Source: Lingula anatina
Taxonomy: Eukaryota > Animalia > Brachiopoda
NCBI GenBank assembly: GCA_051362555.1
Contig: CM120647.1
Span: 5,518,001 to 5,582,000 of the forward strand
Reading direction: 5' to 3'
Length of the DNA: 64,000 nucleotides
Position numbers and translations under genes: made by a program. Under the pieces are notes generated by a model. It worked only from the letters and a program-made list of their open reading frames with translations, did no database searches and was not told where the DNA came from. Of the stretch, positions 16,478 to 62,806 are shown one piece after another. Position 1 is the first letter of the stretch; each line of letters starts with the position of its first letter.

Positions 16478-16555
<78 letters not shown>

Positions 16556-34626: not shown

Positions 34627-34633
34627 TTTTATA
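34627..34633 (-). promoter_or_regulatory. TATA box of the 33656-34000 gene
   Basis: TATAAAAG on the minus strand, about 130 nt upstream of the donor at 34498, consistent with a ~100-nt 5' UTR exon. Confidence 0.55.
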
Positions 34634-40800: not shown

Positions 40801-41513
40801 AACAGTTGTCTCGTTTCCGGGTTTCCTCAGAAAAAGTAGCGCACTAGTTCAAATTATGTTCTCGAGAGGACGATTTGTAAATCCGCCATATGCTTATTCA
40901 AATCTCACATGAAAGAACGAGAGCTTTGAATAATGGCAACTGTTAATAATATTTATGGCGTTCAGACATGGGTCCGCTAGGAAAAGAATGTGAATATTTG
41001 GATCTTAAGTCATTTCATTAAGTAACTCATGGTTGGTCTGCCACAGGAAGTGGTGCCGGTCCAAAAGAAGTTTGTTCCCGGGTTCACGAAGTCACGTAGT
41101 GAATAGAGTGTTTCCTGATGATACCACTGAAAGATACACAGAAGAATAAATAAATAAATAAATAAATAAATATATATATATATAAATAAATCCACTTCTA
41201 CCGTTTGCAATTCATTTTGCCAACCAAAAGTATTTTTACATACATGTACATGTAGGCCTACATATGATGTGCACAAACATTGGAAAAAGAAGGGAAATAT
41301 GTCTAGGAAAATTCAAATAAAAAACAGAAGAATGTCCTTTTTTCACACTTTCTCTCACAACGCTTTCACACTGGATCGTGAAGTAAGTTCTCTACACAAG
41401 AACGTATTTAGTCTGTCCTGAAATATCTTCTTAAACAATGACTAATGTTTATTTTGAAATTATATTTAAGTATATATCTTAATAATTTTATGAGAATCTA
41501 TCCAAACCACACC

Positions 41514-43939
41514 TTAGTTCTCTCTTCGTTGAAGATCCAGGAGTCTTTTAAGTAGATTGATATTGGCGTCTTCAACTGAAAGGAAAATCATACAGAGCTA
41601 CAATAAAATTTCATAGGTATGCAGACACACAAATACTGGCTGCACATACATAATAATTATTGGCACTTCTTTCACACCAGACCTTAGTTAGTGTGTGTAC
41701 ATTCATTTTACCTCTGCCCATTTTCCGTTGAAGATCCAAGATTCTTTTAAGTAGGTTACTATTGGCGTCTATTTTTCACACACTGGGGCTTTTCACTGCA
41801 CACATGTACGGTGGCTCCTAATTAAACCTATCCCTTTTTTCTTCTTTTTTTAACAGTTATATTACATTCATTTAACCTCTGCCCCTTTTCTCCTGATCAT
41901 CTACAAACCAGATTTGAATAATTCCACGCGTTTTCCGCTATCTTTTTTTCAATAATATATATATATATATATATCTATATATATATATTATGTGTCCGTG
42001 GCAATTAACGCTTTATTCAATTTAAGCTTCATATTGCTTGTTTGTTCGTCTGTTTGTTTTTAAAATATTGATAGAAAGTAATATTTTGCTTAAACGACCA
42101 TCTTTATGGGTGCGAAAAATGCGAGTGTTTTAATGGCATGTGCACGTGTTTGTGTGCGTGTAAGCACAATTACCTCGTTTATCGTCGTTAACCCGATATG
42201 CTGCATACCCTAGAATAAAAAAATTATAATGACTTTAATACTTTTTCAGACTGGATCAAGCTTCTCACTGCATACATATACGGTGGCTCTTAAGTTACTT
42301 ATTATTAAGTTACTTATTTTTTGCTTTTCTTTCTTTTTTTTTTTTTTTCAGACAGTGTAATGTGAAATGCTTAAAGATATCACGTGACAGTGACGATGTT
42401 AGTTTTTCTTTCGGTTTTAAGGGTGTTTTAGTTTGTTATTCTGTATAGATTAGTTAAAGTTATTTTCTGCTTTAGGCTCCATCATGTACCACCGGTCATT
42501 GGTCACGTGTGTACATGTATGTGTGCGTGTTACCTGCGGTCCCTCGTTTATCGTCGTTCATCCGCTTGCTTGTATAATACCCTGAAATGAAAAGAGAATG
42601 TCTTCTGCAAATTTCTTACAGTATTTCAATTTCCTTAATTACGGTGTCTTCCAGAAAAAAATACCAACAAATATATGATGATGTAGCTTTCCAAATGTGT
42701 CCTGACTGTGAGCGGTTATTTGTCACGTGTGTATGTGTATGTGTGCGTGTTACCTGAGTTCCCTCGTTTATCGTCGTTCATCCGCTTGGATGCATAATAC
42801 CCTGAAATGAAAAGAGAATGTCTTCTGCAAATTTCTAGCAGTAATGCAATATCCTTAATTATGGTGTCTTTCAGAAAAAATACTAACAAATATATGATGA
42901 TTTAGCTTTCCAATGTGTCCTGACTGTGAGCGGTTATTTGTCACGTGTGTACATGTATGTGTCCGTGTTACCTGAGTTCCCTCGTTTATCGTCGTCAACC
43001 CGCTTGGCACGATACGCTGAAATTAAAAAAGGAATGCCTTCTGCAAATTTCTTACAGTATTAAGTTCTTTGTCTTCCAAAACAATGTGCCAACAAAAATT
43101 TGATGATTCAGAGTTTTTATGTCCCTGACAGTAAGAGATTATACAAAACTTCAACAGTTGGTGTATTTTCCTAGTTAAAGAGTTAATGAGGAAAACAGTG
43201 TTTTTCTGTACTTAAGTTATAACACAAGTGGATGAATCGTAACTTCCTCTTTGTACAGCGTGATGATTTAGCCTTCTTGTTTGGCTATGGTGCATACAGG
43301 CCGACATTGGAGCAGTTTTAGGATTTGTGCTATAAAAACATACGGTAAATGCATCCTAAATATCAAGTACCACTTCATTTTTTTTTCGATTTTTAAAAAA
43401 ATTTCTCGGTATTTCTCTTTAGTTTCAATGTGCATTTGTGCTTAATGGCGATTGGTTATTGATCTTGTATGGCTACGGTGCAAACACGCCAACAGTGGAG
43501 CATGTTTACAGTTTTAGGCTTCGTGCAAAAAAAATTTAGCCTGTGCTGGGAGACGCCTTTTCTTCTTGTCTACGTCATTGGCGTTGCAACCCCTATAAGT
43601 GTGCTGCGACAGATGAAGATATAGAGAGAGAGATCATTACAACTTGGTCCTTTGTTTGTATTCAAAATTAAAATAGTTTGCACTCTTTCGGCCTAAGGGT
43701 ATTGCATCGCAGAAATAATATCGTAGAACCCCTGATCACATAGCCAGATATATACGCGTTTGCCAAACCAAAATGACCGACTATCTAGCTAGAGACATAT
43801 CTGTGAATATCTGTAAAAAATCTATTTGTCGCCCTGGTAGAGGGTAAACAATGTACATCACAAAATCTGAGATCGTCTTAATAAAACTGGCCATATACAA
43901 ATGTAGCCAGAAATCTACACTCGCGTGATTTATGTGTGA

Positions 43940-43970
<31 letters not shown>

Positions 43971-46900
43971 TTTATTTTTGAAATATAAGACGATATAATG
44001 ATTTTTTGTTTTTTATCAGCTACTAAAAATTGAACAGTAGCGTATTCTTAAATATTGAAGTACGCTTCAAATACAATAATGCAATTCTGTCCGTAAGTAT
44101 TGCGTTTTCATATTTATTTATCATTTTAATGTGTCACTTTAATGTCCATCTGTATGTGTGCGTGACTATGAGAGGTTATTAATCGCACGTGTACATGTAT
44201 GTGTGCGTGACTATGAGAGGTTATTAATCGCACGTGTACATGTATGTGTGCGTGACTGTGAGGGGTTATTAATCGCACGTGTACATGTATGTGTGCGTGT
44301 TAACTTAATTACCTCTTCTGTCGTTATTCAGCCGGTATGGATACCCTGAAATAAAATAAATATATATTTTTTTATGTTCTTCATCGAAACATTTTTTGTG
44401 TAAAAAGGGACTGCTTGTTCAACTACATGTACATGCATCATCAGGCATGCGAGCGCAGATGTTTACGTTACATGCTAACGTGCTTGTGTGTTATTTTTCC
44501 TCGTTTTCTCTTTCTCATCTTTGTTCCTCTATGTGAGCGTGTAACCGCTGTAGAAATTAAATGTTTTTCATCATTATGGAAGCAGGCAAAAACGTTTTTA
44601 AAAATTGATCAAATTAAAGGAATCCATCTTGACACGCTTATCCGCCTCTTGTGTTTTACTATATTGATAAATCAAAGCCATATTTTTCTTTAGTGTCTAG
44701 CTATATTGTGCGTGGTTTTGTGTTCTTTTGACCGCGTGTGTACGTGTGTGTGTGTGTTTCCATAATTACCTCGTTTATCGTCGTCAACACGATACGCTGC
44801 ATACCCTGAAATAAAAAGAGGACATGATTTAGATTTCTTCGTAGAATGAAGCGGTTGGTAGAATCAATATTTGTGTAAAAATAATTGTTAGATCAACTAC
44901 ACGCATCAGCATGTGTGCGAGTGCATATGTTTGCGTTGTAAGTGCGCATGCGTGCATGTTACCTCTTCCTCTTTTCTCCTCATCGTCTACGTCATTGTCA
45001 TAAAGCCGCTGAGCTCTATAACCTAAAATCGAACAAGAATACGGTAATATTTGATTTAAAAAGTATCAACAGTAATGCATTTTCAGGAATTCAGAACGCT
45101 TATATATAGAACCGTCTTTAGCAAAATAAAGCATCAAATTCGTTGTGAATTTGCCACAAATTTGCTGCAATAAGACTGCAAATGAGCAGCAACATTGTAT
45201 TTATTTTAAACTCCTGCAAACTCGTTGCTGCAAACTTTTCATTTTGTTAAGGGTGCCTCTTTTATATTCGTTAAAGTATTCTATTCTGTAAATTGTTAGC
45301 CAGTCAAAATCCCTTACAATCGTCGACCCTACAATGACACAGGAATTCATCAGTTGGTGTATTTCCCTGGTTTACTGTTTTCCAGAAAAACACCAACACA
45401 TGTACAGCATGATGAGAAAAAAAATTAAATCTGACACTGGATCTCTCTTGAATCGAGTAACACTACGTTCTGACCTCCTCACAAAGACTTCCTTAAAACT
45501 TTGGTTGCACGCTTACGTACTTGGGTGTTATTCTCTCTCGTTTTCTCTTTTTCATCTTTGTTTCTGTATGTTCATGAGCGTGTATAACCTCTGTCGCAGT
45601 TAAATATTTTGGGCGTTTTTTTCATAATGGAAGCAGGCAAAAACAATTTTTTTAAATGAACCGAATTAGAGAAATGCACGGTGATATGTGTTAAACTACC
45701 GTATATTGATAAATCAAAGTTAAATTTTGTCTTAATGTCCAGCAATATTGTGCGTGATTTCGTGTTCTTTTGACCACGTGTGTAGGCCTACGTGTATATG
45801 TGTGTTTCCATAATTACCTCGTTTATCGTCGTCAACTCGATTGGCTGCATACCCTGAAATAAAACGAGAACATGATTTTGTTTTCTTGGCAGAATCAATA
45901 TTTGTTTAAAAACAAAAAAATAAATGTTTGATCAACTATACGCATTAGCATGTATGTGGGTACATATGTTTGTGGTGTACAGTACCAGCACGTGTTCATG
46001 TTTGCGTGCGTGTGTTCTTACCGTAACCTCTACCGTAACCTCTACCGTAACCTCTGCGATTCACCTCGTCATCTACGTCACTGTCGTCCACCCGCTGAGT
46101 TGCATACCCTGAAAATAAGACGACTATTTATTATTCTCGTCTACTACAAACATTAAAACAGCGTTGCATTATCACAGTTTCGGGGTTAATTCGATTTGTA
46201 ATTTTTTCGAAAAAAAGTTACATATATCTTTACGTCTTTGTCGTCCTCCCGTTGAGCTCCATAGCCTGAAAATAAGATGACTGTTTATTATTCTCGCCTG
46301 CTACAAATATTAAGACAGTGTTACATTTTGACAGATTCGGGTTTTATTCTATCTGTACTTTTTTTTCGTAAAAATAATTTACATGCATATTCGTTTCATG
46401 CTTCCCATATCCCTTTAGAGCATAAAAGAGTGTGTGTGTTTGCGATGGCGATTGGTTATTTATTATGTGTGTACAGGTATGAGAGCGTCTATGTTCCTAT
46501 TACAGTAAAATGCATGTGTGCACTGCCGTTTGTATGTGTGCCAGCGTGTGTAAGTACCAGTACATGTTCATGTTTACGTGCGTGTGTTCTTACCGTAACC
46601 TCTTCGCTTCACCTCGTCATCTACGTCACTGTCGTCCACCCGTTGAGCTCCATACCCTGAAAATAAGATGACTATTTAATATTCCTTGTCTGATACAAAC
46701 AATAAGGCAGCGTTGCAATATTTACAGTTTCGGGATTTATTCTATCTGTAATTATTTCGAAAAAACTACATATATCTTCATGCCTTCCATATCCCTTTAT
46801 AGAATGCATGACTTTGTGGAGGCAATTGGTTATTGATTATGGGTGTGTATGCGTGAGAAGCCAGCAATTTCAAAGGGGGGGTCTTTTTCCGAAAAAAGTG

Positions 46901-48589
46901 GACCTTTTTTACAGTGAGACCTACATGTGCTATATTTTTATGTTTTCATAAAGGCAAATAACAACAAGTCTTGGCAGATTTTATTCTTTTTTTTTTTTTT
47001 TTTTTTTGCATTTTTCCTTTACTGCAAGATTATTTTGGAACAGTTGCAGCATTAAAAATTAAAATAAATAGCAATCTGAAAGAAGAATTTTGCATAATTA
47101 CTATTAATTAAATAGTGATATTGTCAGTCAATTTATGTAGAATCTGATATGATTGAAAATACTGATTAAGTTCTTGGCCTTGCACTGGGCAGTTTTACAT
47201 TTCTGCCAAGTGCTTTTTTTTTTTTTTTTTTTTTTTTTTGACTCCATTGTACAGTGGTTAAAGTTCTTCGATTGCCATGAAAGTTTTTAATCAGACACTG
47301 TATGGTGCTGTCATATGCTGGTGCTATCGGCAACGAATTAATTTGCCTTTGTTTCTGAGTGAATCTACCGTCTAAAATCACTATTTCTGAAAATATTTGC
47401 TTTTTGCTGAGGTAGGCTAGGCAATGCACGGCAAACTTCTTAGTACGTGTGTACAACATAATTAAAAAAAAACCCTAGCAAAATTTGGTCAGGAGTTGCT
47501 TGAAGCATAGCACAGCGTTGCTGTTTATCGCATCAGGCCGTTAGTTTGTCAATTATCACTAATAACCTACCTTGTATTGTATTGTATTGGGGGTAGTAAT
47601 TGCAATAAACAAGCACAAAAACTTCTTTGTGTTAGTACCATTCAAAAGACTTCCGTTCACACCCATTAGACTGAGATAGCGATCAGCTGGCTACCTGGGC
47701 TTCGTTTATTTTAAAAGCCGGACATCCACTTTTACAAACAGGCTTCCCCAGCACTAGTGGGCTAGATTTGGTCTTAAAGTGCAATTTAAGTTCACAAGTG
47801 ATCTTACACGATCTTAATCATTACTGCAGTAGTCTTAAAATGGACTGAATCTGCTTTTAAGATCAAAAATGATCTTACATCTACTTTAGTGGTCAAGCAG
47901 TTCCCCCCCCCCCCACAATGGGGGACACCTCCCCTCACAATAGAGGACACCTCTGCTCACAATAGGAGAATGTGTAAGAGGAGACAACTTAATTGGCTGT
48001 CAGACTAGAAATGGTCTTACTCATGTTTTAAGATCATGTAAGACTATTTGTGTTCTTAAATTGCATTTTAAGACCATATCAAGCCCACTAGTGCAGTTAA
48101 GTGTAAATAGACCAGGGAATTATATCCGATATAATTCCCTGAATCTAAAATCTACATGTAATGCTAAACGGTATATTAGATATTAGCCTGAATGGACATA
48201 GGACATAAAAGGACATAGAATCTAGATCAAATTTTGGTTCAGAGAGAAAAAAAGGGCGGTTCGTTCGGACCCCCCCCCCCCCCCCCGGCTACGTTAAACA
48301 TTAACGAATGTACAGCATGATGAGAAAAAATTAAATCTGACACTGGCATTTAATTCCAGGTACCACATCTAACATGACTTATGGTAGCTAAATTACGAAT
48401 TAGTTGTGAAGATATCTATATTTTATACCATTTATTCAAATTTATGATATGTATTCCTTGAAGGCATGCCACGCCGCCCACACTATACACTTGCAGTACT
48501 CAGTCGGCACAAGCTATCACACGCGTGTTCTTTAACGAACATACATATATATATATATATCCTTATGCTAATTGTGCGTAAATTTGGTG

Positions 48590-48634
<45 letters not shown>

Positions 48635-50238
48635 GAAAACATTTAACCTCTGTGGATTTCACAGTGAAACATTGGCTTTTAGGGGGTACATGCTATCAAT
48701 TTAAATAAATGGTATAAAATATGAATATATCTTCACCTAAATAACAGCAAAAGCATTTATACCTCACGTGCTTTATTAAAAAATAATATGTGATTTCCTT
48801 TATTATTCATTGAATCAATATAAATATTCTGCTTTTATGGCTTTTAGGGGGTGCATGCTGTAAATTAAAGTAAATGGCATAAAATCTGGAGAACTTTACC
48901 GATATATTGTATTTTCTGTTCTAATATATTACCTCTCTTCTCTACCTCTTCGTCATTGACTTTATCGTTTATTTTCTCAGCTCTATACCCTAAAACAGAG
49001 CAAGAATAATTGTAATCTGTCCATCACCTAAATAACAGCAATGGCATTTATACCTCACATGCTTTATTTAAAAAATAATATGTGATTGCCTTTATTATTC
49101 ATTGAATTAATATTAATATTCTGCTTTTATGGCTTTTAGGGGGTGCATGCTGTAAATTAAAGTAAATGGCATAAAATCTGGAGAACTTTACCGATATATT
49201 GTATTTTCTGTTCTAATATATTACCTCTCTTCTCTACCTCTTCGTCATTGACTTTATCGTTTATTTTCTCAGCTCTATACCCTAAAACAGAGCAAGAATA
49301 ATTGTAATCTGTCCATCACCTAAATTACAGCAATGGCATTCATGCCTCTCTCACGTGCTTTATCTCAAAGTATAATATGTGATTTCTTTTATTAGTCATT
49401 AAATCAATATAAATATTCTGATTTGTTGGATTTGAGGGAATGCATGCTATGAATTACAAATAATTTGGACAACTTCACCAATGTATTGTATTTTCTGTAA
49501 AAATATATTTTACCTCTTCTCTCCTCTAGCTCTTCGTCATTGACTTTGTCGTTTATTTTCTCAGCTCTATACCCTAAAACAGAGCAAGAATAATTGTAAT
49601 CTGTCCATCACCTAAATAACAGCAATGGCATTTATACCTCACATGCTTTATTTAAAAAATAATATGTGATTGCCTTTATTATTCATTGAATTAATATTAA
49701 TATTCTGCTTTTATGGCTTTTAGGGGGTGCATGCTGTAAATTAAACTAAATGGCATAAAATCTGGACAACTTAACCGATATATTGTGTTTTCTGTACAAA
49801 TATATTACCTCTCTTCTCTACCTCTTCGTCATTGACTTTGTCGTTTATCTTCTCAGCCCTACTGGGGGTAAAGCCTAAAACAGAGCAAGGATAATTGTAA
49901 TTTGTCCGTCACCAAAATATCAGCAATGGCATATGTCCCTCTCTTGTCTTCGGCGCAACTATGTGAGTGCGTGAGACGTCATACATGCGAGTATCCGCGG
50001 ACCCCCCTTCAAATAATTCTGGATCTGCCCCTGCTGTCTGGACATGTATGTGTGCGTGTAACCTCATTAACCTCGTTTGCTGTTGATAGCCCGTTTATCG
50101 TTCTATAATCTGACCACAATACTACTTTTCTGGAATTTCATCTCCCATTAGTTTGTGGGTGTCATGGCGATTTTTATGAATTACTTTGAAAATAACTGTT
50201 TTTTTTCTGCCTGCCCGCCATTCCTCTCATATTTCATC

Positions 50239-50302
<64 letters not shown>

Positions 50303-51206
50303 GTGCGTGCGTGCGTGCGTGTGTGTGTGTGTGTATCCATGCCTGCTATTTCCGTTACCTCTCTTCTCTTCCATTCTATACATGTATGGACGCCTTGAAA
50401 TTCAAGAAAAAATATTACCGTACAATTGTATCGCCACATTTATCTGGTTATTCATCGCACGTAAGCACACGACCACATTGATTTCTTATCGCACTTTTTT
50501 TTCATAAAGAAATATAATAAAAATGGCGGCTTTTCAATTGGTGAAAAGTTTGACACAAACAACTAAGGCCGCATTCTCAGTAGCGGGCTTACTAGTCCAC
50601 CGATCAAATATGGCCGACCCCTTTAAATGCTTGTCGGTTAATCCCTGCCGGAATCTATTCAGTGTCTATTAGGGGATTATGCGACAAGCTTTTAAGTGGG
50701 TCGCCATATTTGATCCGAGACTAGTTAGTTCGTGGTTGTGAAAGAGGCCGAGGTCTGCTAGTACATCGTGCCGATCACTTCTTTAACTTCTACGGTTCAC
50801 AAAATATGTACATGTATCTGAATGCATCGTCACAAAGCTATAAAATGTTTAAAAGTCACGAACGACCATTTTAATACGGAAAAAATCACTGAACTGGACA
50901 AGCTATCTAAAATAATGGTTTCATGTTTCTTACATATTACGTCATAGAGAAAATGTTTGTAAATCGAACTTGGTATGTACTACTCTGTTCCGGTATGTTG
51001 TTATGATATCAGTGTACATATTTATCTGATATTTATATGTCGTTATACATATACATTTCCTTTTTGGCATTTATACTGGTACGGTTTGCTGTGTCGATAA
51101 CAATGAAACTGATTTGGGGTGCATTGTTGACATGAAAAACGAGTAGCAGTTTGTAAAACGAGGAAGAAAATGAAACCCAGCTGTAACTAGTTACAGCTGT
51201 TAAATT

Positions 51207-51244
<38 letters not shown>

Positions 51245-52296
51245 AAGGAAAAGACAGAGAGAGTGGAAATGAGAAACCAATGAGAGAGAGAGAGAGAGAG
51301 CGCGTGTGTGTGCTTGGGGGGAGGGGATCTTCATCTGCTCCATTCTCTTCGTTGTCCACGTAAAAGTCTTGATCGTTAATTTTCTGTCACTAACTGTCTG
51401 TTCAACTAACTGTTTGCGTGATATTAACATTCTGCTATATCAATTAACTATCCAATATTTCTTTACAAGGCACTCTTTGGAAGCTGTAGTTCATTTACAA
51501 CATCAATACTCATATCCAAATGTATATTTTCTATTACAACATACGTGAAAATTATTTTTTTTTGATTATGAAGTGAACCCGTCAATTAAAACCTTGTGTG
51601 CCTGTGATATCCTCCACTGTTGTCAAAAACGAAAACATTTTTCAGACTAGTTTACACTTAAGGCAATTTTACTTGCATTTAATAACTTGCTTTTTTTTTC
51701 ATTTAAATTTATGTTCTTCTTCTTTTTCTTCAAATTTCTATTAACGAAGTAAGGTTAACAGTTAACAGTTAACCTTAAATCAAGTTTACTATTAAGCTCA
51801 CGAGTAAATATTCCAACAACTATTTAACGTTTAGTATACGCATTGCAAAGTAAGACACATCCTTTCATGTAATCAATTTTTCATGAGCCAGCGGTTGTAT
51901 TATCAATTTATAATCGTTGAATTGAATTGTTAAATTTAAAAATGTACTTTTAACGTCATTTTATTCTTTTTTCAACCCGACATAACTTCTCTGAATTTCG
52001 CAATACATTTTAAAACAACTCGGCATGTAATCACTAAACAATGATTTACAATCAAGAAAATTAGGTGTCGTGAAGATATGAAAAATATTTATAAATCATA
52101 AACCTAAATAATCTTACTCAAGTATTAAGTATTGCTCCATTTTCATCCTATGGTTTGAAAGGTATTATTCCTGCGTTTTCCTTGTGTACCTCTCTCTCTC
52201 TCTCTCTCTCTCTCTTTTCAAACACACATGCATGCCCATACACAATACAAGCACAAACGCGCATTAGCAAACTGAACACACATTTACAAGCACGTA

Positions 52297-52335
<39 letters not shown>

Positions 52336-52802
52336 AGAGACATGCATATCCAAACAGACATACACCCGTTCATACATAACGAACACGCACAGGGGAGGAA
52401 CGTAAAAACTTAATATTGTCAAAACTGCGATAAGATAATTGGGCGGGATCTCCCCAAGCAGAGCGATATTTTTTAGGATCAGATGGATAGAAGAACTGAA
52501 AACATCATGGGAAATTCTCACCTAGCATCACCACTTTTTACCTTTCTACCTATAGCAACAGTAGGCTCTTAACTTACAAACGTTGTCAACACTTTTAAAC
52601 ATTTTTGTCAGTGTGCAGTAACGTATTTCAACTTGTTTTCTAAACATAATTCTTTATTTATTTACTGTATTACTTTTACTTTATATTTTTATCAAACCTT
52701 GCATCAAAGGAAAACGGCTTCTGACATTTAAAATTGGCTGACTGAATTCTTATCTTATCTCATCTTGCCCCATCTTATCTTATTGTATCTTACGCACTCA
52801 CT

Positions 52803-52862
<60 letters not shown>

Positions 52863-52956
52863 CAAACATAAATATTAATTCCTTACCTCTCTCTTCAATA
52901 CCTCCTATAATAACCAATCCACAAAAGAGGACAAAAATCAGGAGTGGATTCTTCAT
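41514..52956 (-). CDS. Micro-exon gene B: secreted Gly/Tyr/Arg-rich multi-peptide precursor with acidic spacers and dibasic sites (complete in window)
   Basis: Exon 1 52956-52887 MKNPLLIFVLFCGLVIIGGIEER|phase 1 (G|GTAAGG). AG/GT-bounded phase-1 exons: 49874-49809 GFTPSRAEKINDKVNDEEVEKR; 49573-49514 GYRAEKINDKVNDEELEERR; 49281-49225 and 48989-48933 GYRAEKINDKVNDEEVEKR; 46656-46594 GYGAQRVDDSDVDDEVKRRGY; 46108-46022 GYATQRVDDSDVDDEVNRRGYGRGYGRGY; 45853-45818 GYAANRVDDDKR; 45022-44963 GYRAQRLYDNDVDDEEKRGR; 44805-44770 GYAAYRVDDDKR; 44345-44313 GYPYRLNNDRR; 43016-42972 AYRAKRVDDDKRGNS; 42801-42754 GYYASKRMNDDKRGNS; 42581-42534 GYYTSKRMNDDKRGTA; 42209-42174 GYAAYRVNDDKR; 41900-41877 DDQEKRGR; 41768-41712 DANSNLLKRILDLQRKMGR (weak acceptor); last coding exon 41575-41514 VEDANINLLKRLLDLQRREN*. 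Confidence 0.8.
42490..43140. repeat. ~220-bp exon-plus-intron tandem repeat, 3 copies
   Basis: Homologous exons start at 42581, 42801 and 43016 with near-identical flanking introns. Confidence 0.85.
44155..44300. repeat. 45-bp intronic tandem repeat, about 3 copies
   Basis: GTGTGCGTGACTATGAGAGGTTATTAATCGCACGTGTACATGTAT repeated. Confidence 0.9.
47752..48093. mobile_element. CACTA-ended MITE in a gene B intron
   Basis: Termini CACTAGTGGGCT.. and ..AGCCCACTAGTG with ~40-bp imperfect TIRs; CAG on both flanks (47749-51, 48094-96). Confidence 0.7.
48730..49935. repeat. ~292-bp exon-plus-intron tandem repeat, 4 copies
   Basis: Exon starts at 48989, 49281, 49573 and 49874 (spacing 292, 292, 301) with near-identical introns. 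Confidence 0.9.
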
Positions 52957-53023
52957 AGCTAAATTCCGATCGGTTGTCGCCAAGTCTGTGATATTACAAG
53001 CAGTGTCCGTTTATCGTTTTTAC

Positions 53024-53080
53024 TGAAATGAGCTCCTGCCTGAAGCGTGCAGGTTTTATACCAATTGGAGCCACGCCCAC
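53024..53080 (-). promoter_or_regulatory. Core promoter of micro-exon gene B
   Basis: TATAAAA at 53060-53054; initiator-like TCATTT with its A at 53029, 31 nt from the first T of TATA; GC box GTGGGCGTGG at 53080-53071; ATG at 52956. Confidence 0.65.
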
Positions 53081-53796
53081 CTTTCCGTCACGGGGAGTAA
53101 TCGTTAGACTCTAATGACGGTGGGTAGCTTGTGGGTGACAGCGTCTGGATATAATTCTTTATGATCATTAACGCGTGACATCCGTAGAGGAGGATCCCAC
53201 CTGGGCGTATGATCAACGGCGATGTGGAGAACCGCTGCGTTGCGCGTTGACTACCATTACATTTTTTTCTCATATCATTTCACGATTTCAAGTCTATTTT
53301 TTTAAAGGGGGGTGAGATTACAAATTGGCGCCCTTTTACATGTAGCCGCAGTTGAATTTTTATGAACAAACAGGCGTATCTCACTGTTTATTAAACTAAT
53401 TCAGTTCTCAACGACGATGCATGTTATGTATGTAAATTAAATAAAGTGTTTAAGTACCATGAAAAACCGTTTTAATACGAACAAATTAAAATACAGAAAT
53501 TTACAACCGTCCTGAAAATTCAGTGGTTTCATATGCCCCTCCCATCAACCTCGAGCAAAGGAGAAATGTCTGTTCATGTAAATGATATGTGTTACTTTTG
53601 TTCTGTACATCATCATACTATCAGTATTCCCATTTATCTGCTGACGAGATGAAATGATCGGTCATTTAATATACACATGTGTCTCCTTTTTGTGTTTTCT
53701 TTGTCGTAAACATTGGAGCTGATCCTTACTTCGTGTGGATCGGTAGTTTCATCAAAATTGTGGAATGTGAAAATAAATTCCAGTGTTAACTTTGCT

Positions 53797-53836
<40 letters not shown>

Positions 53837-54338
53837 TTAGTATCGGATAAGTTCCACCCATGATAAACACATGTTGATTTTCTACATATTATAAAATTAT
53901 CTATGAATAAAATGCAAATGTCAGGCTGTAATTATTTTGTGAAAACCCTCCCTGCTCTTGTTATAGCTTTTTTTTTTCAAGCAACAAGAGCGTGAAAAGA
54001 GCGTGCATAAATTCCGAACTCAACTTAGAATGTACAGCGGATAGCCTTGTACAATTTCACCGGCGAAATTTCCATCAGTTTCACATAAAAAAAATTAAGC
54101 AGGCCAGATTTTATGTGGCAAGAATTACGAATTCCTAGGCCTATCAATATCAGTGTAAAACCAATGTGAAAAAGTCCACGAAATAAAGATAACTTCTAAT
54201 TTTCAAAATCACCACTAAAATTCACCGAGATATGCAGTGGTGTGCAACTAATATAAACTGGGACGCGTATCCAGGGACGTGTTTTTTTCTCAAATATTAT
54301 TTTATTTATTCATTTCTTTATTGTATTTTATTTATCTG

Positions 54339-54372
<34 letters not shown>

Positions 54373-56188
54373 GAATACGAGAAAAATGATGGAATTTGCA
54401 GGAAAAAATGTGTCTTATAAAGGTATATCGCTCATCGTCGGTCCTTAAAGTCGAAACTCGATCTTAGCTACATACTGTAGTTAGAGCATTTTAGCTCTCC
54501 GCCGATTCTTTTGCATTAAAAAAAGACTGGCCCACTAAAAGCCAGTACATACATGTAGCTATGCCATACAATAACCCGCGTCACTGCTAAATGTCCGACA
54601 ACTATCCTGGACACATTTTCATCCCAAACAGGTAAATCAATGCCACATTGCAGTTACGCCACTGTGTCATTAATACCCCCTCTCTGCGTTATCAAGGTGT
54701 CGATTACGTCACTATCAAATTAACACCACCTATCCCGCTCAGGTGACTTTATTGAATGCCAAAGGCAACGACAGGGGGTGGTATCACAGTCTGTATGAAA
54801 TGTAGCTAGGAATTTTAATTCTGTAAGAATGAGAAATGCACAGAGGCATATTGTGCGGATTCGAGAATTTGACCCCTTAAAAATTAAGAAAGATTAAAAG
54901 AAAACTGAAAAGCACGCCGAAAGCGCAGGCCCCCACCAAAGCAGTTCAGTTCTTATTGTTATTTATTAATCAGTTTCTCAATAATTTAATTAGCTTAATT
55001 ATCATTATTATGTATTACTTACTTATTCACTCATTGATCAGCAAATTTTTCACATTTTACCAATTCATTATTATTTCACTGATCAACACCAAAATCTAAA
55101 CTATTCCTTACCTGTTCGGAGAATTTTACCAAAATCTCTCAACAATTTTTGCATATTGATGCTTAAGGACACACAACCAAATGAATTAACTAATTGATAT
55201 TTAACCATTCCCAACAGTTTCTGAATATCTAACCAAATTACGTCCAGAATTTTTTTTCATAATTTTGCCAACATAGAAGCAGATAAAGGGAACCAAGCAT
55301 ATAAAGTGACATCCTTGGCAAAAGCAATTATAGAAAAGAAAAACCTTTTTATTTAAAGAACATTTTGCTTTACTTTTATCTGTTTGTTTTAATATTGTAA
55401 TGTTAGTTTTTAATTTATCTTAAATAGTGTATGTAAATATTTAAATTAAAATATGTAAATTATTTAAAGCGTCCCATCTACTTTGACACTGTAAAAATAC
55501 GATACGATTAGTCAGAGATTTCGAAGAGAAAGTATATTAGACATGTCCTGCAGAAAAAGAAAAACAAACAAACACAGAATGTGTATTTCTAAGCAGCGAT
55601 GAAGACACTAAAAAGGGAAGAAAGAATGCAAATATTATGTAGTCTCTACTTGCTCGAAAGAACCTTTTTTTTTGTTTGCAACCACTAACGCGTTCACTTC
55701 TACGCCATTTACAAAAAAACACTGAAACTATTGACGGGAAATTATTTTATATTTTCCATTCAACTGGCGGCAAAGATGAAATTTCGATTAAGACTTAACG
55801 ATTGAATGGACGACTATTTTGATCGGTAAGGCATACTTTGCACGTTAGATCATTAAATGAAAAATACCGAATATCACGGATACAGCATAGCAAAACAAAA
55901 TGACGAACAATGACAATATTGACAATATAAATATATATTTAAAAAACTCATATTATTTAAAATTACACTTAAGGTATGTATTATGGTTAAGGATCTAAAG
56001 TTAACTTTCCTGAGGATTTCAACAATTATTTGTCAGTCACTAAGATACTTCCTATACGAGATGGTTGCATTATTGTTATGGGTAGGAGCACACACAGCAT
56101 CTATACCATTCAACTATCACACACTTTTAACACATCTGGCTTTCGAACAAATTGGAAAAGAAACAAGAAACACAAGGTACATTTACAC

Positions 56189-56216
56189 TTTATTGCTATT
56201 TATTGAGTGTTTTATT
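56189..56216 (-). terminator. Candidate polyadenylation signals of gene A
   Basis: Three AATAAA hexamers on the minus strand within 30 nt, about 600 nt into the presumed last exon (acceptor at 56799). Confidence 0.4.
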
Positions 56217-56818
56217 GCTTGCTTTTCAGATATCGTTTGATAAGGAAACAAAGTTAGAGCATAAATTGAACAGTATAAGGATCATATTTTAAAACAAAAT
56301 GGATTGTTTTAATTCTACAAAAACATTAGTCACTTTATACTATTACTAATTGCGATCTAAAATGATCGAAAACACCATCAAAACATGACCAGTGACCAAA
56401 GCAGACTGTCTGGATGTCATGATTATAACTTCTGCTCTGTGGTGATATTAATGACCAATGAAGGTCGCATTACCCAAAGTTACTTCATTTCTTGTATCTA
56501 TATATATCAGAAAAAAGGGCTTCACTTTCCATTTTTATAAAGCGATATGATGTACGTTACTTATATGTTGCCCATGCCTAAGATAGTCAGTTGTTTGTTC
56601 TTAGTAGTTCAAAATCTGTTTGCGATGAGATATGTTGAGAAAAGGACCAGTTGGATGAAAAATACGCAAATATGTTGATATTACACCAACCAAATCACTG
56701 ATTTTTTCATATCCGGCACGATCTTATACCAATCCAGGTTGACTCTTGCAGGAAAGCGGAAGTCACGTGTTGGAAGGATAGTGTGCCCAGATGATACAAC
56801 TGAAAGACGAAAGAGGAA

Positions 56819-56857
<39 letters not shown>

Positions 56858-57118
56858 ACTGTTTTTGTCTGCAGGTCATTTTGCCAAACAAACTGTTAAG
56901 TTTTAATAACATTAACGTGCATATACAGGTGATTTGCACAAAGATTGGAATGAAAATATTTAAATTAAACTTTTCTCTCAGAGAGAGTTTATGGTAATTC
57001 AACATCAACGCAACTTTCAGAGTAATATTTTATCTACGCAAGATCACATTTAGTCTGAATTGCATAATTTTACACAGTGACTTCATGCTATTTACGTACG
57101 TTCTTTACCTCTTTACCG

Positions 57119-57747
57119 TTAAAGATCCAGGAGTCTTTTAAGTAGGTTGATATTGGCATCTTCACCTGAAAGCAAAGTCGTACAAAGTTATATTAAAATA
57201 TCGAAGTAGGTATGCAGACACATAATTACTGAAGCAGCTTCTGTAAACTTAGATGATAAACGAAAGTCAGGAGTTCCCACCTGCCATAAAAACTGTTTGC
57301 AAATGAATTTTATCACTAATTCAAGTTTCTAACTATAAAAAAACTGTTCGCATGCGTGTGTTCTTACCGTAACCTCTTCGGTTCAGTTCGTCGTCGGTCT
57401 CACCGTCGAACACCCGCTGGGTTTTATACCCTGAAATGGGACGACAAAAATCAATGCAATGCTTTTTTCTGTTACAAATATGGGACCAAATATGGGTGCA
57501 TTTTTAAGAATTAAAATACAGAAAGATACAGTTTCCATGCAGTTAATTTCCCATTGTGTATTTTTTTCTATGTTTATTCATTATTTCATTACTTTCCCCT
57601 AAGGCCACAGTGTATGTACAAGTGTATATGCCTGTGAGCTGTGATTGATGAGTCGTCACATGTGTACATGTATGTTTGTGTGTTACCTCCGAAACGCCGT
57701 TTATCGTCGTTAATCCTCTGGGCTCTATACCCTGAAATTGAGCAGGC

Positions 57748-57794
<47 letters not shown>

Positions 57795-60491
57795 CGTTTT
57801 ATTTCCTTAGAACTTTTTGATGATGGTGCATTTTCATAAAATAGAGGTTTTCTATATCAAAAATTAAACGTTCGCATATAACACACCTTGACTTTTTATT
57901 TTTCAATTGTCCTTTTTATGTTGTTTATATTTTAATGTGCCTTCTGATATCACAGATCATCCTAGTATAACATGTTACAAAATTATGTTTGAACAGAGCA
58001 ATAGCAACCTTAATGGTCAGAAAATAATTTGAAGGCATTTTTGCTCGAATTTTCATTTCTTAATGCTTCTGAACTTTCCAAATGCAAGCTTTAAAGTAGA
58101 TTAAAATGCCATCGCAATGTCCTTCTGAACCGTAGATCTTTGAAAGGTCCAAGACAAATATAATTGAGAGATATTGTCGTCTATATTATACAAGATTCGA
58201 GGCTACAATGTCAGATTGTATTACGAAGTTCTTTCGGAAGTTGCGTATCTTGTTAATCTCAAGAAGGCAGTGGGTTCTAAATGATTGGCAACTAATTAAT
58301 TTTTAAATAATTATTATTAAAAATTGTAAAAAAACATCGACTTAACTGCACAAATAAAGAATTGAAAATATTAGATATTTGCTTTTTTCTCGAGAAAAAT
58401 CCGTTTTGGCGCGAAGAGCACAGTTACAAGGACCTCTTAAGGATACTTATAAATATAACTCTTTGAGTGCTGATGTTGTTGTAGTTTCTGTTTGTATGTG
58501 TGTTTTTATCCATGCAAGTGTGCTTTTACCTTTACCTCTTTTCTCTGTTTCTATGTCGGTGGCTTTGTCAGTTGCCTCTTCAGCTCTATACCCTCTATAC
58601 CCTAAATAAAAATGATAATTGTTTTGTAGTATCTTGCCCGTCACCAAATAACAACAATGGAATATCTCTCCAAACTTTATTCACTCGAAAGTATATCGTT
58701 TTTGTTTTAAGATATACCAAAGACATATATTTCTTCGCCTAATCATCACACCAACCAAAAATTATTCTTCAAATCAGACCTTTACTAAAAAAACATAGCA
58801 AAAACAGTAACTAGTGCCATTATATTTCGCTGCAAAGACAAGAAGACACCGCGGTTTAAATGAGTCGTAACACGCTAAGATTTTTTTCTTTAAAAATGCT
58901 ACAAAACAGCTATCACAAATGAGGGAACGGATGGAGCAATGATTTATCAGCAGTACAATGCACTTTCTTCTTTACTCACCGTGCCCATATCCTGAAACAA
59001 ATAAGGAGGTTCCAAATTTATATTTCGTCTGTTATCATAATAAAAACGGCGATGGTCACAGGCCTTTTGAGACTTCAACACCAACTTTGTGATACAATTA
59101 AATTACCAAACTAAATGTCTTTTAATGACTCTGACCTTTTTTTAAATTAAAAACCTTTTTAAATCCGAGCAATTCAGTCTACCGAATATTTTAAAAAAAG
59201 AACTCAAAACATACCTTTTTAGGAAATATTTTGATTAACTCTTAATTGGTTTTATAAATCTTGTATTAATTGCATTTAATCGTATGGATTAATGGCTGTT
59301 TTACCTAGATTTTATTTATGATATTTTATGTAGTATTATTTATGATATTTTATGTAAAGTCTACTGAACATTTTAAATGGATTTTAGACCTAAAATAAAT
59401 TTATTATTATTATTTATTATTAATTTAAGGTTTATTTTCATCAACTGTATCCGGGAAATGATTTCTCAGTAGGAAAATGCACTTTCTTCGTCTACTTACG
59501 GTAACACCTTCGTCTACTTACCGTAATATCCTGAAACAAATCAGTAGGTTCCAAATTAATATTTTGGCTGTTACCATAATAAAAACCTATGGTCACAGGA
59601 TTTTTGAGACTTCAACACCAACTGTGTGATCCGGTTTTATTACCAAACAAAATGTCTTTTAATGACTTTTGATGACCATTTTTTTTTAAATTGAAAACCT
59701 TTTAATTTAAAGTATATTTTGATCAATTGTATCCTTTAGTTTTTAATTTCTTTTATAGCTTAGTTTTTAATTCATCTGTGCAGTTTTAGTTTTATATACA
59801 TGTACATATGCCGAGACGCATTTAAGAAATAAGTTATTATCGTTATTATTAAAAAATCATTCATTTTGATTATATCTGTTCACGTTCATGTGCTTGTGTG
59901 TGTGTTTCGATGTTTTGTAACTGCAAGTATTGCAGGTGTAATGTTTGGTCACCGTAAAATCTCTTCATTTTGTCTTTTTCATCACTGTCGTCGACGTCTT
60001 GGTCGTCTAAAACAGAAATTAAGCAAGCATTTTGCTATTCAAGAAAACTGTTTGATAAACATCTTTACCCAAGTAAATTAATTCAGGAAAATTTTAAAGT
60101 AACAATAACGCACCTAACTTCATATATTTAATTAAGCCTACAATATCATTTTTTTACTTACATAAATCATAATTTTCATTTGTCAAGAGGTCATTAACAG
60201 AAATTAAAGACAAAAGACGGAAACGATTTGGACGGGCCTTCATTACAATGACGTCATAAAGATAGACAACAATGCACTCCAACAGAATCACACGCCTTTA
60301 AAGACATAACTGAAATACTTCACTTCATACTGCATCAAGATAAAACATATCAACTTCTAGTGCACAGATTCGTCGAACAAAAAAGAGACCGAAGCAGAAA
60401 TTTGCTTTTTTTTCTCGCGGAAAATCCGTTTTGATGCGAAGAGCAAGATCACGAAGATCTTATAAGGATACTTTTAAATATACTCTCTTTT

Positions 60492-60535
<44 letters not shown>

Positions 60536-62318
60536 TGCGTGTGTGTTTATACATGCGTGCGTGCTCTTACCGTTACCTCTTTTCTCCGCCTCTATGTCAA
60601 TGGCTTTGTCGTTTACCTTTTCAGCTCTATACCCTCTATACCCTCTATACCCTATATAAAGAAATAATTGTTTAATAGTATCTTGCCCGTGACCAAAATA
60701 ACAGCAATGGCATATCTCCCCAAACTTTATTCACTTGAAAATATACCGTTTGTATTTTAAGATGTACTAACGTCATATATTTCTTCGCCTTATTATCTCA
60801 CCAACCAAAAATTATTCTTCAAATCAGTACCAAGTGCCATTATATTAGGCTGCAAAGACAAGACGACATCGCGGTTTAAATGAGTCATATACTAAAGTCA
60901 TATATTTCTACGTCTAATTATCTCACCAAACAAAAACAATTTTCCAAATTAGAGCTTTAAACGAAAAAAAACAACAAAATAGTGCCTGGTACTATAATTT
61001 TTGGCTGCATAGTCAAGAAGACAAGGCCTGTTTAAATGAATCATAATATGTTTAGAACTATTTTTCATCAAACTTGCTATAAATCTCTTAGTTGGAAAAA
61101 GAATTTTCTTCGTCTACTTACCGTACCTATACGGATACCCTGAAAGAAAACATGTAAGCTTCAATTAAATGTTGTTTTTTTTTGCCATAATAAAAAAGGC
61201 GATAATAAAAACGTATGGTCACAGGATTTTTGAGACTACAACACCAATTTTGTGATCCAATTTTGTCAACAAATGTGTCTTTTAATGGCTCTTATCATTA
61301 TTTAAAAAAAGGTACGTTGTTATTTACATAATGTTTTGATTAACTGTATCTTTTAGTATTTAATTACTTTTATAATTTAATTTTTATTTAGCTGTGCACA
61401 TTTAGTTTTTATATACACATGTAAACAAAGCTGAAACGCATGTGTTGCCTTGTTTTTGAGTAATTTATTATTATTATCACTATTATTATAATTATTTTAA
61501 AAAAACATTCATTTTGGTAATATCAATGCACGTTCGGGTGCTTGCATGCAGGGCCGTAGCCTGAGCAAAATGCCAGGGGGGGCAGTAAGCGGACACGAGG
61601 GGGCGAAGCTACTGAGGGGGGAGGGTGTGGTGTGTAAAATTCCAAATTCCAGGGGGGGGCAGCTGCCCCCCCTGCCCCCCCGGAGGCTACGGCCCTGTGC
61701 ATGTATGTTTCAATGTATTGTGTCTACAGGTGCTGTATGCTTTGTTTGCATGGTCACCGTAATATCCGTAAAATCTTTTCATTTCGTTGTTTTCATCACG
61801 GGCGCCGACATCTTGGTCTTCTAGCACTGGAATTAAGCAAGCACTTTGTTAATCAAGAAAACTATTTGATAGACATCATTACTAGCTTAGCACTTCAAAT
61901 CGGGGTTATTTTTAGTAATAGCTTAGATAGCACCTTACCTCACATATTTTATGAAGCCCACATTTTTTGTTATTGAATAATATCATTTTTCAAATCTTTT
62001 CACTTAAATGCACTTTTACTTATTTCAAACGTTTCAATATCCAACGGATAGTGGTTATTAACAGAAATCAACGACAAAATACGGATAAAATATTCGCTGA
62101 AACCAACGATTTGAATAGACATTTATTCACATGACATCATAAAGATAGACAACACTGCACGCCAACAGAATCAGACGCCTTTAATACTTCACTTAATACT
62201 TCACTTCATACTACATCAAGATAAAAAGGATACTTTAAATATAACTCGCTCTCGTTCTCTCTCTATCTCTCTCTCTTTTTCTTTCCTCTCTGTGTGTTTG
62301 TTGTTGTTGTTGTCGATG

Positions 62319-62352
<34 letters not shown>

Positions 62353-62806
62353 ATACATGCGTGCGTGCTCTTACCGTTACCTCTTTTCTCCGCCTCTATG
62401 TCAATGGCTTTGTCGTTTACCTTTTCAGCTCTATACCCTCTATACCCTATATAAAGAAATAATTGTTTAATAGTATCTTGCCCGTGACCAAAATAACAGC
62501 AATGGCATATCTCCCCAAACTTTATTCACTTGAAAATATACCGCTTGTATTTTAAGATGTACCGAAGTCATATATACGTCTAATTATCTCACCAAACAAA
62601 AACTATTTTCCAAATTAGAGCTTCAAACGAAAAAACAACAACAAAATAGTACCTGGTACAATAATTTTTGTCTGCATAGTCAAGAAGACAAGGCGGTTTA
62701 AATGAATCATAATATACTTAGAACTATTTTTTCATCAGGCTTGCTATAAATTTCTCAGTTGGAAAGAGTTTTTTCTTCGTCTACTTACCGTACCTATACG
62801 GATACC
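57119..62806 (-). CDS. Micro-exon gene A: paralog of gene B, 5' part beyond the window end
   Basis: Phase-1 AG/GT exons: 62806-62789 GYPYRY; 62446-62381 GYRGYRAEKVNDKAIDIEAEKR; 61820-61758 EDQDVGARDENNEMKRFYGYY; 61139-61122 GYPYRY; 60651-60577 GYRGYRGYRAEKVNDKAIDIEAEKR; 60006-59953 DDQDVDDSDEKDKMKRFY; 59530-59522 GYY; 58991-58980 GYGH; 58601-58536 GYRGYRAEEATDKATDIETEKR; 57731-57687 GYRAQRINDDKRRFG; 57430-57368 GYKTQRVFDGETDDELNRRGY; last coding exon 57165-57119 GEDANINLLKRLLDL*. Confidence 0.78.

What the first reader, a model, noticed from the sequence alone, without database searches (positions are those of the whole stretch)
41514..62806. Tandem pair of micro-exon genes encoding secreted Gly-Tyr-Arg multi-peptide precursors
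Seen: about 27 internal exons of 9-87 nt on the minus strand, most with a polypyrimidine-AG acceptor and all with a GT donor, each a multiple of 3, all phase 1 and stop-free in that frame. The phase-0 frame hits stops, e.g. exon 48989. Most start GY and end in or contain KR/RR. Gene B has TATA/Inr, a signal-peptide exon ending in phase 1 and a terminal exon shared with gene A. Established: signal peptide plus repeats, acidic spacers and dibasic sites is the layout of convertase-processed precursors (neuropeptides, apidaecin- and magainin-type antimicrobials), and arrays of symmetric tiny exons define schistosome MEG genes. Inference: a MEG-like, exon-modular peptide family that I cannot match to any known family and that ORF-based annotation would miss. 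Caveat: exons were picked by eye and duplicated ones are not independent evidence.
Basis: partly seen in the sequence, partly recalled or inferred. Interest (0 to 1): 0.92.

Follow-up and report, generated by a model that had tools for sequence, protein, structure and literature searches.

The report
Brachiopod exon-per-peptide secreted precursor genes
In the lamp shell Lingula, two neighbouring genes are built from about two dozen tiny, in-frame interchangeable exons, some of whose splicing is seen in RNA reads; the encoded protein is predicted to be secreted and cut into many short tyrosine-rich peptides that likely serve in defence, laid out like the honey-bee apidaecin gene but matching no named peptide family in the searches run.

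Summary
The host is Lingula anatina or a close lingulid. On the minus strand lie 25 clean internal exons of 9-87 nt, all 3n, AG/GT, phase 1 and stop-free; chance gives about 0.04. Reads of 1 of 4 RNA runs join 3 of gene B's 15 predicted introns exactly. A truncated RefSeq model (LOC106162183, uncharacterized) joins 3 more and is the only database relative. Gene B encodes a 287-aa, net-neutral precursor: signal peptide, then units of a Gly-Tyr/Arg head and an acidic tail closed by KR/RR. Corrections: exons are mostly larger than schistosome MEG exons (median 54 nt); the terminal exon is duplicated, not shared; gene A lacks its 5' end here and its splicing is untested; the acidic part is likely kept on the released peptide. 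The closest known layout is honey-bee apidaecin (one peptide per exon, exon content varying among individuals); reads hint at such variation here. Function is untested: defence about 0.38, neuropeptide or pheromone 0.27, tyrosine-crosslinked material 0.22. New family, known kind of architecture.

The parts
53029..53078 (-). Gene B core promoter: GC-box-like 53078-53071, TATAAAA 53060-53054, initiator-like site at about 53029
   Evidence: sequence; motif names recalled; start site not mapped
52887..52956 (-). Gene B first coding exon: 23 codons plus 1 base, predicted signal peptide, phase-1 donor
   Evidence: hydropathy about 3 over residues 4-18; identical to the N-terminus of RefSeq XP_013394820; one-strand RNA depth in its bin
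51593..51616 (-). Candidate optional 24-nt phase-1 exon with weak donor
   Evidence: absent from the RefSeq model; about 75 letters of one-strand RNA depth in its bin; not proven
49809..49874 (-). Gene B internal exon 1 (66 nt)
   Evidence: in RefSeq model
49514..49573 (-). Gene B internal exon 2 (60 nt)
   Evidence: in RefSeq model
49225..49281 (-). Gene B internal exon 3 (57 nt)
   Evidence: RefSeq model runs from here into the intron
48933..48989 (-). Gene B internal exon 4 (57 nt), identical to exon 3; 292-bp exon-plus-intron tandem unit
46594..46656 (-). Gene B internal exon 5 (63 nt)
   Evidence: donor joined to exon 6 by 4 reads
46206..46265 (-). Broken exon copy without its donor; skipped in RNA
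   Evidence: lies inside the 485-nt intron removed in reads
46022..46108 (-). Gene B internal exon 6 (87 nt), ends in a 12-nt Gly-Tyr-Gly-Arg repeat
   Evidence: both junctions seen in reads
45818..45853 (-). Gene B internal exon 7 (36 nt)
   Evidence: both junctions seen in reads
44963..45022 (-). Gene B internal exon 8 (60 nt)
   Evidence: acceptor joined by 6 reads
44770..44805 (-). Gene B internal exon 9 (36 nt)
   Evidence: no RNA depth in its bin
44313..44345 (-). Gene B internal exon 10 (33 nt)
   Evidence: low one-strand depth in its bin
42972..43016 (-). Gene B internal exon 11 (45 nt)
   Evidence: no RNA depth
42754..42801 (-). Gene B internal exon 12 (48 nt)
   Evidence: no RNA depth
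42534..42581 (-). Gene B internal exon 13 (48 nt)
   Evidence: no RNA depth
42174..42209 (-). Gene B internal exon 14 (36 nt)
   Evidence: one-strand depth in its bin
41514..41575 (-). Gene B terminal coding exon with stop; AATAAA at 41453
   Evidence: depth in bin 41532-41947 cannot be told from gene A-type reads or nearby broken copies
40700..41126 (-). Candidate 3' untranslated exon of gene B (end not mapped)
   Evidence: acceptor at 41127; one-strand depth 0.73 in bin 40700-41115
62789..62806 (-). Gene A internal exon (18 nt), first one inside the window
   Evidence: sequence only
62375..62446 (-). Gene A internal exon (72 nt)
   Evidence: sequence only
61758..61820 (-). Gene A internal exon (63 nt; an acceptor at 61826 gives 69 nt), acidic then dibasic site
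   Evidence: sequence only
61122..61139 (-). Gene A internal exon (18 nt), identical to 62806-62789
60571..60651 (-). Gene A internal exon (81 nt)
   Evidence: sequence only
59953..60006 (-). Gene A internal exon (54 nt)
   Evidence: sequence only
59522..59530 (-). Gene A micro-exon (9 nt)
   Evidence: sequence only
58980..58991 (-). Gene A micro-exon (12 nt)
   Evidence: sequence only
58530..58601 (-). Gene A internal exon (72 nt)
   Evidence: sequence only
57687..57731 (-). Gene A internal exon (45 nt)
   Evidence: sequence only
57368..57430 (-). Gene A internal exon (63 nt)
   Evidence: 20 letters identical to its 3' end stand before gene B exon 5 in 2 reads
57119..57165 (-). Gene A terminal coding exon with stop, paralogue of 41575-41514

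Best explanation
These are two tandem paralogous Lingula genes built by repeated exon duplication, each exon encoding one unit of a protein that is predicted to be secreted and cut at exon-end KR/RR sites into many short Gly-Tyr-headed peptides, which likely act as host-defence effectors whose mix would vary with exon content, as in honey-bee apidaecin. Steps. Shown: exon structure, single phase, purifying selection, and splicing of part of gene B. Inferred from general knowledge: the signal peptide routes the 287-aa precursor into the secretory path; acidic tails balance the basic heads (net charge 0); proprotein convertases and carboxypeptidase cut at the 20 dibasic sites that close an acidic tail, releasing units of about 10-35 residues (Gly-Tyr-x-Ala/Thr-x-Arg/Lys head, aliphatic residue, Asp/Glu tail). 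Inferred, weaker: a second, trypsin-like cut outside the cell frees the cationic Tyr/Gly/Arg heads (5-23 residues), the likely active part. Because every exon is phase 1 and 3n, gain, loss or skipping of any exon keeps the frame, and 9-18-nt exons in gene A lengthen the Tyr-rich head. I put the architecture and processing at about 0.85 and the defence role at about 0.38.
For: Exons and phases. Splicing: in run X1, joints skipping 485, 168 and 795 nt with minus-strand GT..AG ends (4, 6, 6 reads) equal predicted intron lengths, and exon-bin depth is on one strand only; RefSeq XP_013394820 joins the signal exon to internal exons 1-3. Processing layout: 20 of 20 tail-closing sites dibasic, followed by Gly (16), Phe (3), Val (1); net charge 0 (B) and -1 (partial A). 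Variation: X1 shows 'goes back' joints (7, 4, 3 reads) and letters absent from the window, and no depth on 4 of 14 internal exons, so its transcripts differ in exon content from this assembly. Precedent: apidaecin has one peptide per exon and exon number and sequence differ among bees (PMC1847501). Lineage restriction and exon reads in only 1 of 4 runs fit a restricted or inducible effector.
Against: No activity, tissue or induction data. Most units released by dibasic cutting alone are neutral or acidic, unlike typical cationic antimicrobials, and most gene B heads are only 5-7 residues. pN/pS is below 1 in heads and tails, so no sign of diversifying selection. Only 3 of 15 gene B introns have read support, from about 6% of one run at depth under 10; gene A splicing is untested. 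Variant reads could come from an unseen paralogue or a diverged population instead of an allele. Low, restricted expression fits a neuropeptide equally well.
Confidence: 0.38

Rival explanations
1. A lineage-specific proneuropeptide, hormone or pheromone precursor: the repeated Gly-Tyr-x-Ala/Thr-x core is a receptor ligand released at dibasic and monobasic sites.
For: Signal peptide plus KR/RR-flanked repeats with a conserved core; purifying selection; low expression. Units begin Gly-aromatic after KR and end acidic before KR, as achatin repeats do in the list seen; monobasic cutting occurs in spiralian precursors (PMC8557429, passages).
Against: No unit has Gly before its closing site, so no amidation. 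Not found by 8 short terms in the proneuropeptide supplement of PMC8557429, which names Lingula anatina 394 times, nor by 4 in PMC6425005 (2 files cut when stored). Units are 10-35 residues, not 4 as in achatin, and brachiopods are reported to lack achatin receptors. Head length varies widely.
Confidence: 0.27
2. A precursor of tyrosine-rich structural or adhesive peptides (periostracum, chaetae, pedicle mucus): acidic tails keep Tyr/Arg heads soluble in granules, and tyrosinase later turns Tyr into DOPA for cross-linking.
For: Tyr 8% (B) and 12.5% (A), beside Gly and Arg, with one Cys in B (in the signal peptide) and none in the part of A held; micro-exons in gene A add only Gly-Tyr blocks, which points to composition, not a receptor motif. 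DOPA-rich adhesives of mussels and tubeworms (PMC11667028, abstract start in listing). A secreted chitin-binding-domain gene lies nearby, which is proximity only.
Against: Absent from the searchable shell-proteome tables of PMC13425148, with a working positive control. Low read depth, where structural genes are usually abundant in their tissue (tissues unknown). Many heads carry a single Tyr.
Confidence: 0.22
3. A convergent counterpart of vertebrate secretory calcium-binding phosphoproteins (statherin or casein type; comparison recalled, not tested): acidic tails bind apatite and control mineral growth in the phosphate shell.
For: Lingula has an apatite shell and no such vertebrate genes or secreted acidic shell proteins were found (PMC4595640, passages), which leaves the role open. 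Small same-phase exons and acidic-then-basic-then-Gly-Tyr blocks.
Against: Not in the shell proteome tables although the RefSeq model was of the kind searched; Ser only 2.4% and 0.5%, so few phosphorylation sites; phase 1, where the vertebrate genes are recalled to be phase 0.
Confidence: 0.08
4. A decaying tandem repeat or pseudogene cluster that only mimics a gene.
For: Broken exon copies at 46265, 43592, 41770 and 41904; transposon-rich window; no exon joints in 3 of 4 runs.
Against: Exact spliced reads, RefSeq model, open 864-nt frame over 16 exons, frame-keeping gaps and pN/pS 0.3-0.4.
Confidence: 0.03

Closest known systems
Lingula anatina LOC106162183 (RefSeq XP_013394820.1, XP_013394819.1; uncharacterized)
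   Same: XP_013394820 matches gene B's signal exon and internal exons 1-3.
   Different: It stops after 92 aa by reading into an intron and lacks 11 internal exons and the terminal exon. XP_013394819 starts with a different, related signal exon that is not in this window. No function is given; 0 papers hold these accessions.
Honey-bee apidaecin gene (multi-peptide antimicrobial precursor)
   Same: Conserved N-terminus followed by exons that each encode one peptide unit; exon number and sequence differ among individuals (PMC1847501; PMC3415428).
   Different: Apidaecins are proline-rich 28-residue units with X-A/X-P spacers; here Pro is 1%, units are Gly-Tyr/Arg heads with Asp/Glu tails, some units span several exons, and no homology was found.
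Schistosome micro-exon genes (MEGs)
   Same: 10-20 short exons, mostly 3n, 6-81 bp, introns 0.1-5 kb, secreted products (PMC10526429); here 14 and at least 11 exons, 24 of 25 at most 81 nt, introns 157-3012 nt.
   Different: MEG exons are mostly 15 bp; here median 54 nt, duplicated peptide units with convertase sites, free-living host, no sequence relation.
Spiralian multi-copy proneuropeptides (achatin, pedal peptides)
   Same: Signal peptide, KR-flanked unamidated repeats; Gly-aromatic start and acidic end as in achatin.
   Different: Longer, more variable units, one per exon; not found in two curated lists by short terms.
Frog skin peptide precursors with acidic spacers
   Same: Acidic segments balance cationic peptides and convertases cut at dibasic sites (PMC13444074, passages).
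   Different: The heads here are short Gly-Tyr/Arg strings; the site between head and acidic part is mostly monobasic with an aliphatic next residue.

Membership tests
Apidaecin-type multi-peptide precursor | Signal peptide followed by repeated units, one per exon | tested here: met
   met for all 14 gene B exons, while some gene A units span several exons
Apidaecin-type multi-peptide precursor | Exon number and sequence differ among individuals | tested here: inconclusive
   X1 reads hold exon copies and letters not in the window; allele cannot be told from paralogue
Apidaecin family | Proline-rich mature peptide and sequence homology | tested here: not met
   Pro 1.0%; no hit other than Lingula
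Apidaecin family | Infection-induced, antibacterial | not testable with these tools
   needs challenge RNA-seq and assays
Schistosome MEG | 10-20 short exons, 3n, up to 81 bp, secreted product | tested here: met
   25 of 25 are 3n, 24 of 25 at most 81 nt; definition
Schistosome MEG | Most exons about 15 bp | tested here: not met
   median 54 nt; 4 of 25 are 18 nt or less
Schistosome MEG | Sequence relation to MEG proteins | tested here: not met
   profile search of 1.84 billion representatives gave 1 hit, from Lingula
Schistosome MEG | Variants made by exon skipping | tested here: inconclusive
   4 of 14 gene B exons have no depth in X1, but no skipping joint reached the listing threshold
Proneuropeptide | Signal peptide and similar repeats between basic sites | tested here: met
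   signal peptide judged by hydropathy, SignalP not available
Proneuropeptide | Match to a described spiralian family | tested here: not met
   exact short-term searches of two supplements and Pfam; exact terms miss diverged relatives
Proneuropeptide | Neuronal expression and a cognate receptor | not testable with these tools
   tissues of the runs are not given
Secretory calcium-binding phosphoproteins (features recalled) | Phase-0 introns and Ser-rich phosphorylation motifs | tested here: not met
   all phase 1; Ser 2.4% and 0.5%; no paper retrieved for the definition
Lingula shell matrix protein | Detected in the shell proteome | tested here: not met
   0 hits for accessions and motifs in the tables of PMC13425148, control accessions found; short tryptic pieces could be missed
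DOPA-type adhesive or tanned protein | Tyr converted to DOPA in the secreted product | not testable with these tools
   composition only

The most novel reading that the evidence does not exclude
Genes A and B form one combinatorial peptide-cassette locus: two promoters with related signal exons, at least 25 same-phase exons and two terminal exons, so that splicing across the A/B border and exon gain or loss between animals give each Lingula its own library of Gly-Tyr peptides, a first apidaecin- or MEG-style diversifier in a brachiopod. Hints: 2 reads put 20 letters identical to gene A's last internal exon directly before gene B exon 5; RefSeq isoform X1 joins a different signal exon to gene B exon 1; read depth on gene B's terminal exon ends about where the A and B copies diverge.
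Probability: 0.2. Interest if true: 0.75.

Novelty: new variant of a known kind. Interest (0 to 1): 0.52.

Why it matters
It is a real, mostly unannotated, lineage-restricted peptide-precursor family in a phylum whose secreted peptides are little known. It shows the one-peptide-per-exon design of insect apidaecin arising independently in a lophotrochozoan, with micro-exons that tune peptide length. The predicted peptides are short and easy to synthesise, so the defence, signalling, adhesive and apatite-binding readings can be tested directly. It also shows how such genes drop out of annotation: RefSeq keeps 92 of 287 residues.

Tried and rejected
No whole genome is held for this window, so gene A's 5' end and further paralogues could not be sought. 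The run search listed no indexed RNA holder, only 9 same-label raw-read runs; this is no evidence either way. Only one read lay (gene B, 4 of 9 runs) was obtained, so gene A and runs X2, X3, X6, X8, X9 remain unexamined. Most reads laid come from repeats in the introns (both strands, 90-95% alike) and were set aside. Pfam: 4 single exons gave 0 families at E 0.1; the two RefSeq proteins gave only matches under the curated cut-offs. ESM Atlas: no usable hit. JGI metagenomes: 375 pattern matches, none confirmed. Earlier scan findings: nothing by sequence, words or place. The bacterial promoter scan is irrelevant to an animal gene. Phase 0 and phase 2 readings were rejected for stops. Achatin orthology was considered and not adopted (unit length; receptor reported lost). 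The likeness of the Val-Asp-Asp-Asp-Lys stretch to an enteropeptidase site, and of Gly-Tyr-Gly-Arg repeats to nematode NLP-29-type antimicrobials and mussel foot protein 3, is recalled and was not tested. The rule that an aliphatic residue after a basic site blocks convertases is recalled; the papers sought were not held. No structure was predicted: the repeats have no alignment depth. 'Not in print' rests and supplement searches; subscription papers and bioRxiv supplements were not seen.

Full report
Host. The window's single-exon fucosyltransferase (27451-28563, Pfam GT10) is 83% identical to a Lingula anatina protein and at most 44% to the other 90 of 91 hits. The finding's own signal exon and first internal exons match L. 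anatina RefSeq proteins exactly, apart from one residue in an intron read-through. The host is L. anatina or a close lingulid. No whole genome is held.

Observation. I read 40500-64000 on the minus strand and listed candidate exons by rule. There are 25 clean internal exons: 11 in gene A (62806-57368) and 14 in gene B (49874-42174). All are 3n, bounded by AG and GT, end in G and are open in phase 1; phases 0 and 2 hit stops in 16 and 23 of 25. A fixed rule finds 22 on the minus strand of the region, none on its plus strand or in the rest of the window, and 0.04 on average (maximum 1) in 100 resamples. Duplication inflates that count, so I also compared paralogous exons: 87% identity against 78% in flanking intron and frame-keeping gaps in 17 chosen pairs, and pN/pS of 0.33 in heads, 0.42 in tails and 0.16 in the terminal exon in 15 chosen pairs. 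These are uncorrected counts on non-independent pairs, but all point to coding selection.

Gene models. Gene B has a TATA box about 31 nt before an initiator-like site, a 70-nt signal-peptide exon, 14 internal exons and a terminal exon; joined, they give 864 nt and 287 residues with one stop at the end. Gene A gives 184 residues and lacks its 5' end here; a LINE fragment (zf-RVT) fills 63098-64000. Each gene has its own terminal exon, 93% alike. Broken exon copies at 46265, 43592, 41770 and 41904 show continuing exon birth and death.

RNA. Nine raw-read runs with the same species label were offered; four were laid on gene B. Only X1 (poly-A, about 6% read) shows exon joints. It joins exons 5-6, 6-7 and 7-8 (4, 6 and 6 reads), removing 485, 168 and 795 nt with the right ends, which are the predicted intron lengths. 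Depth in exon bins is on one strand only, as expected for a minus-strand RNA, and includes the signal exon bin. X4, X5 and X7 list no such joint. The RefSeq model adds three junctions (signal exon to internal exons 1, 2, 3). So 3 of 15 gene B introns rest on reads, 3 on a database model and 9 on sequence only. Gene A's 11 introns rest on sequence only.

Signs of variation. X1 has no depth on internal exons 9, 11, 12 and 13, and has 'goes back' joints around exons 5 and 6 (7, 4 and 3 reads) with foreign letters between. Fifteen such letters are nowhere in the window; twenty others, in 2 reads, equal the 3' end of gene A's last internal exon. RefSeq isoform X1 joins another signal exon, not in the window, to gene B exon 1. 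The X1 animal therefore expresses an exon set different from this assembly. Allele, paralogue and A-to-B read-through cannot be told apart; Chinese and Japanese Lingula populations are reported to be strongly diverged (PMC13425148, Results part 1).

Protein. Gene B is 14% Arg, 14% Asp, 9% Gly, 9% Glu, 8% Lys and 8% Tyr, with net charge 0; gene A is 12.5% Tyr, net charge -1. Each unit is a Gly-Tyr-x-Ala/Thr-x-Arg/Lys head, an aliphatic residue and an Asp/Glu tail closed by KR or RR. The 20 sites classed as closing a tail are dibasic (the rule required it) and are followed by Gly, Phe or once Val; of 19 sites opening a tail, 15 are monobasic and 18 are followed by V, I, L or M. By a recalled rule, convertases avoid such sites, so the first products are likely head-plus-tail units, neutral or acidic and not amidated. 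Free cationic heads would need a second cut. In gene A, exons of 9-18 nt add Gly-Tyr blocks and give heads of up to 23 residues with 9 Tyr.

Relatives. A profile of 18 exon peptides found only the two RefSeq isoforms among 7989 scored candidates and one hit among 1.84 billion representatives; the longer isoform found only these two among 189 candidates. Pfam, the ESM Atlas, metagenome contigs and earlier scan notes gave nothing usable. The accessions are in no searchable paper; motifs are absent from two proneuropeptide supplements and from two Lingula shell papers' supplements, with positive controls for three of the four.

Comparison. It works like honey-bee apidaecin in layout: one peptide per exon, with exon number and sequence differing among individuals (PMC1847501 and PMC3415428, passages). 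It is not an apidaecin: not proline-rich, no homology. It meets the loose size description of schistosome MEGs but not their typical 15-bp exons, and is unrelated (PMC10526429, passages). Same-phase exon duplication after a phase-1 signal exon is also described for wasp defensin-like genes (PMC2853521, passages). Papers seen: passages of PMC8557429, PMC4595640, PMC2853521, PMC3415428, PMC10526429, PMC1847501 and PMC13444074; abstract, two of three parts of Results and supplement hits of PMC13425148; supplement hits of PMC6425005; listing only for PMC11667028.

Verdict. A real, spliced, lineage-restricted precursor gene (gene B) with a probable tandem paralogue (gene A). The architecture is a new variant of a known kind and the peptide family is unnamed. 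Function is untested: defence 0.38, signalling 0.27, tyrosine-crosslinked material 0.22, apatite control 0.08, decay 0.03. Interest 0.52; 0.75 if cross-gene splicing and individual exon libraries are confirmed (probability about 0.2).

Noticed in passing
window 27451-28566 +: Single-exon alpha-1,3-fucosyltransferase (Pfam GT10), 83% identical to a L. anatina protein, with a 7-residue insertion from a short tandem duplication at 27587-27627.
   Followed up: partly
window 34640-31798 -: Probable three-exon gene for a Cys-rich protein with a hydrophobic N-terminus and a chitin-binding peritrophin-A domain (E 0.00017), with a TATA-like box near 34632.
   Followed up: partly
window 63098-64000 -: 3' fragment of a LINE (zf-RVT) ending in poly-A and TAA repeats just upstream of gene A's first exon in the window; it may sit in an intron of gene A or have cut the gene.
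   Followed up: no
window 6297-10675 -: piggyBac-type transposase pieces (DDE_Tnp_1_7) with a TatD-like nuclease reading frame in pieces nested among them at 8694-10095.
   Followed up: no
window 14955-17914 -: Retroelement-like fragments, including an ORF with a weak baculovirus F-protein match (E 0.018, under the cut-off); observed only.
   Followed up: no
window 2988-3775 and 12655-13034: Two arrays of the same roughly 160-bp tandem unit.
   Followed up: no
window about 26275-26510 and 26640-26875: Near-perfect inverted repeat of about 235 bp around a TA run, seen by eye; fold-back element or assembly artefact.
   Followed up: no
window 41126 and 56800, - strand: Both genes have a similar acceptor some 300-400 nt after the stop codon, suggesting a 3' untranslated exon; the sequences behind them show no blastn match to each other.
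   Followed up: partly
window 41575-41531 and 57165-57121, - strand: The terminal exon peptide is the most conserved part (pN/pS 0.16, one pair) and has a Leu pattern of an amphipathic helix; it could be a granule-sorting signal (inference).
   Followed up: no
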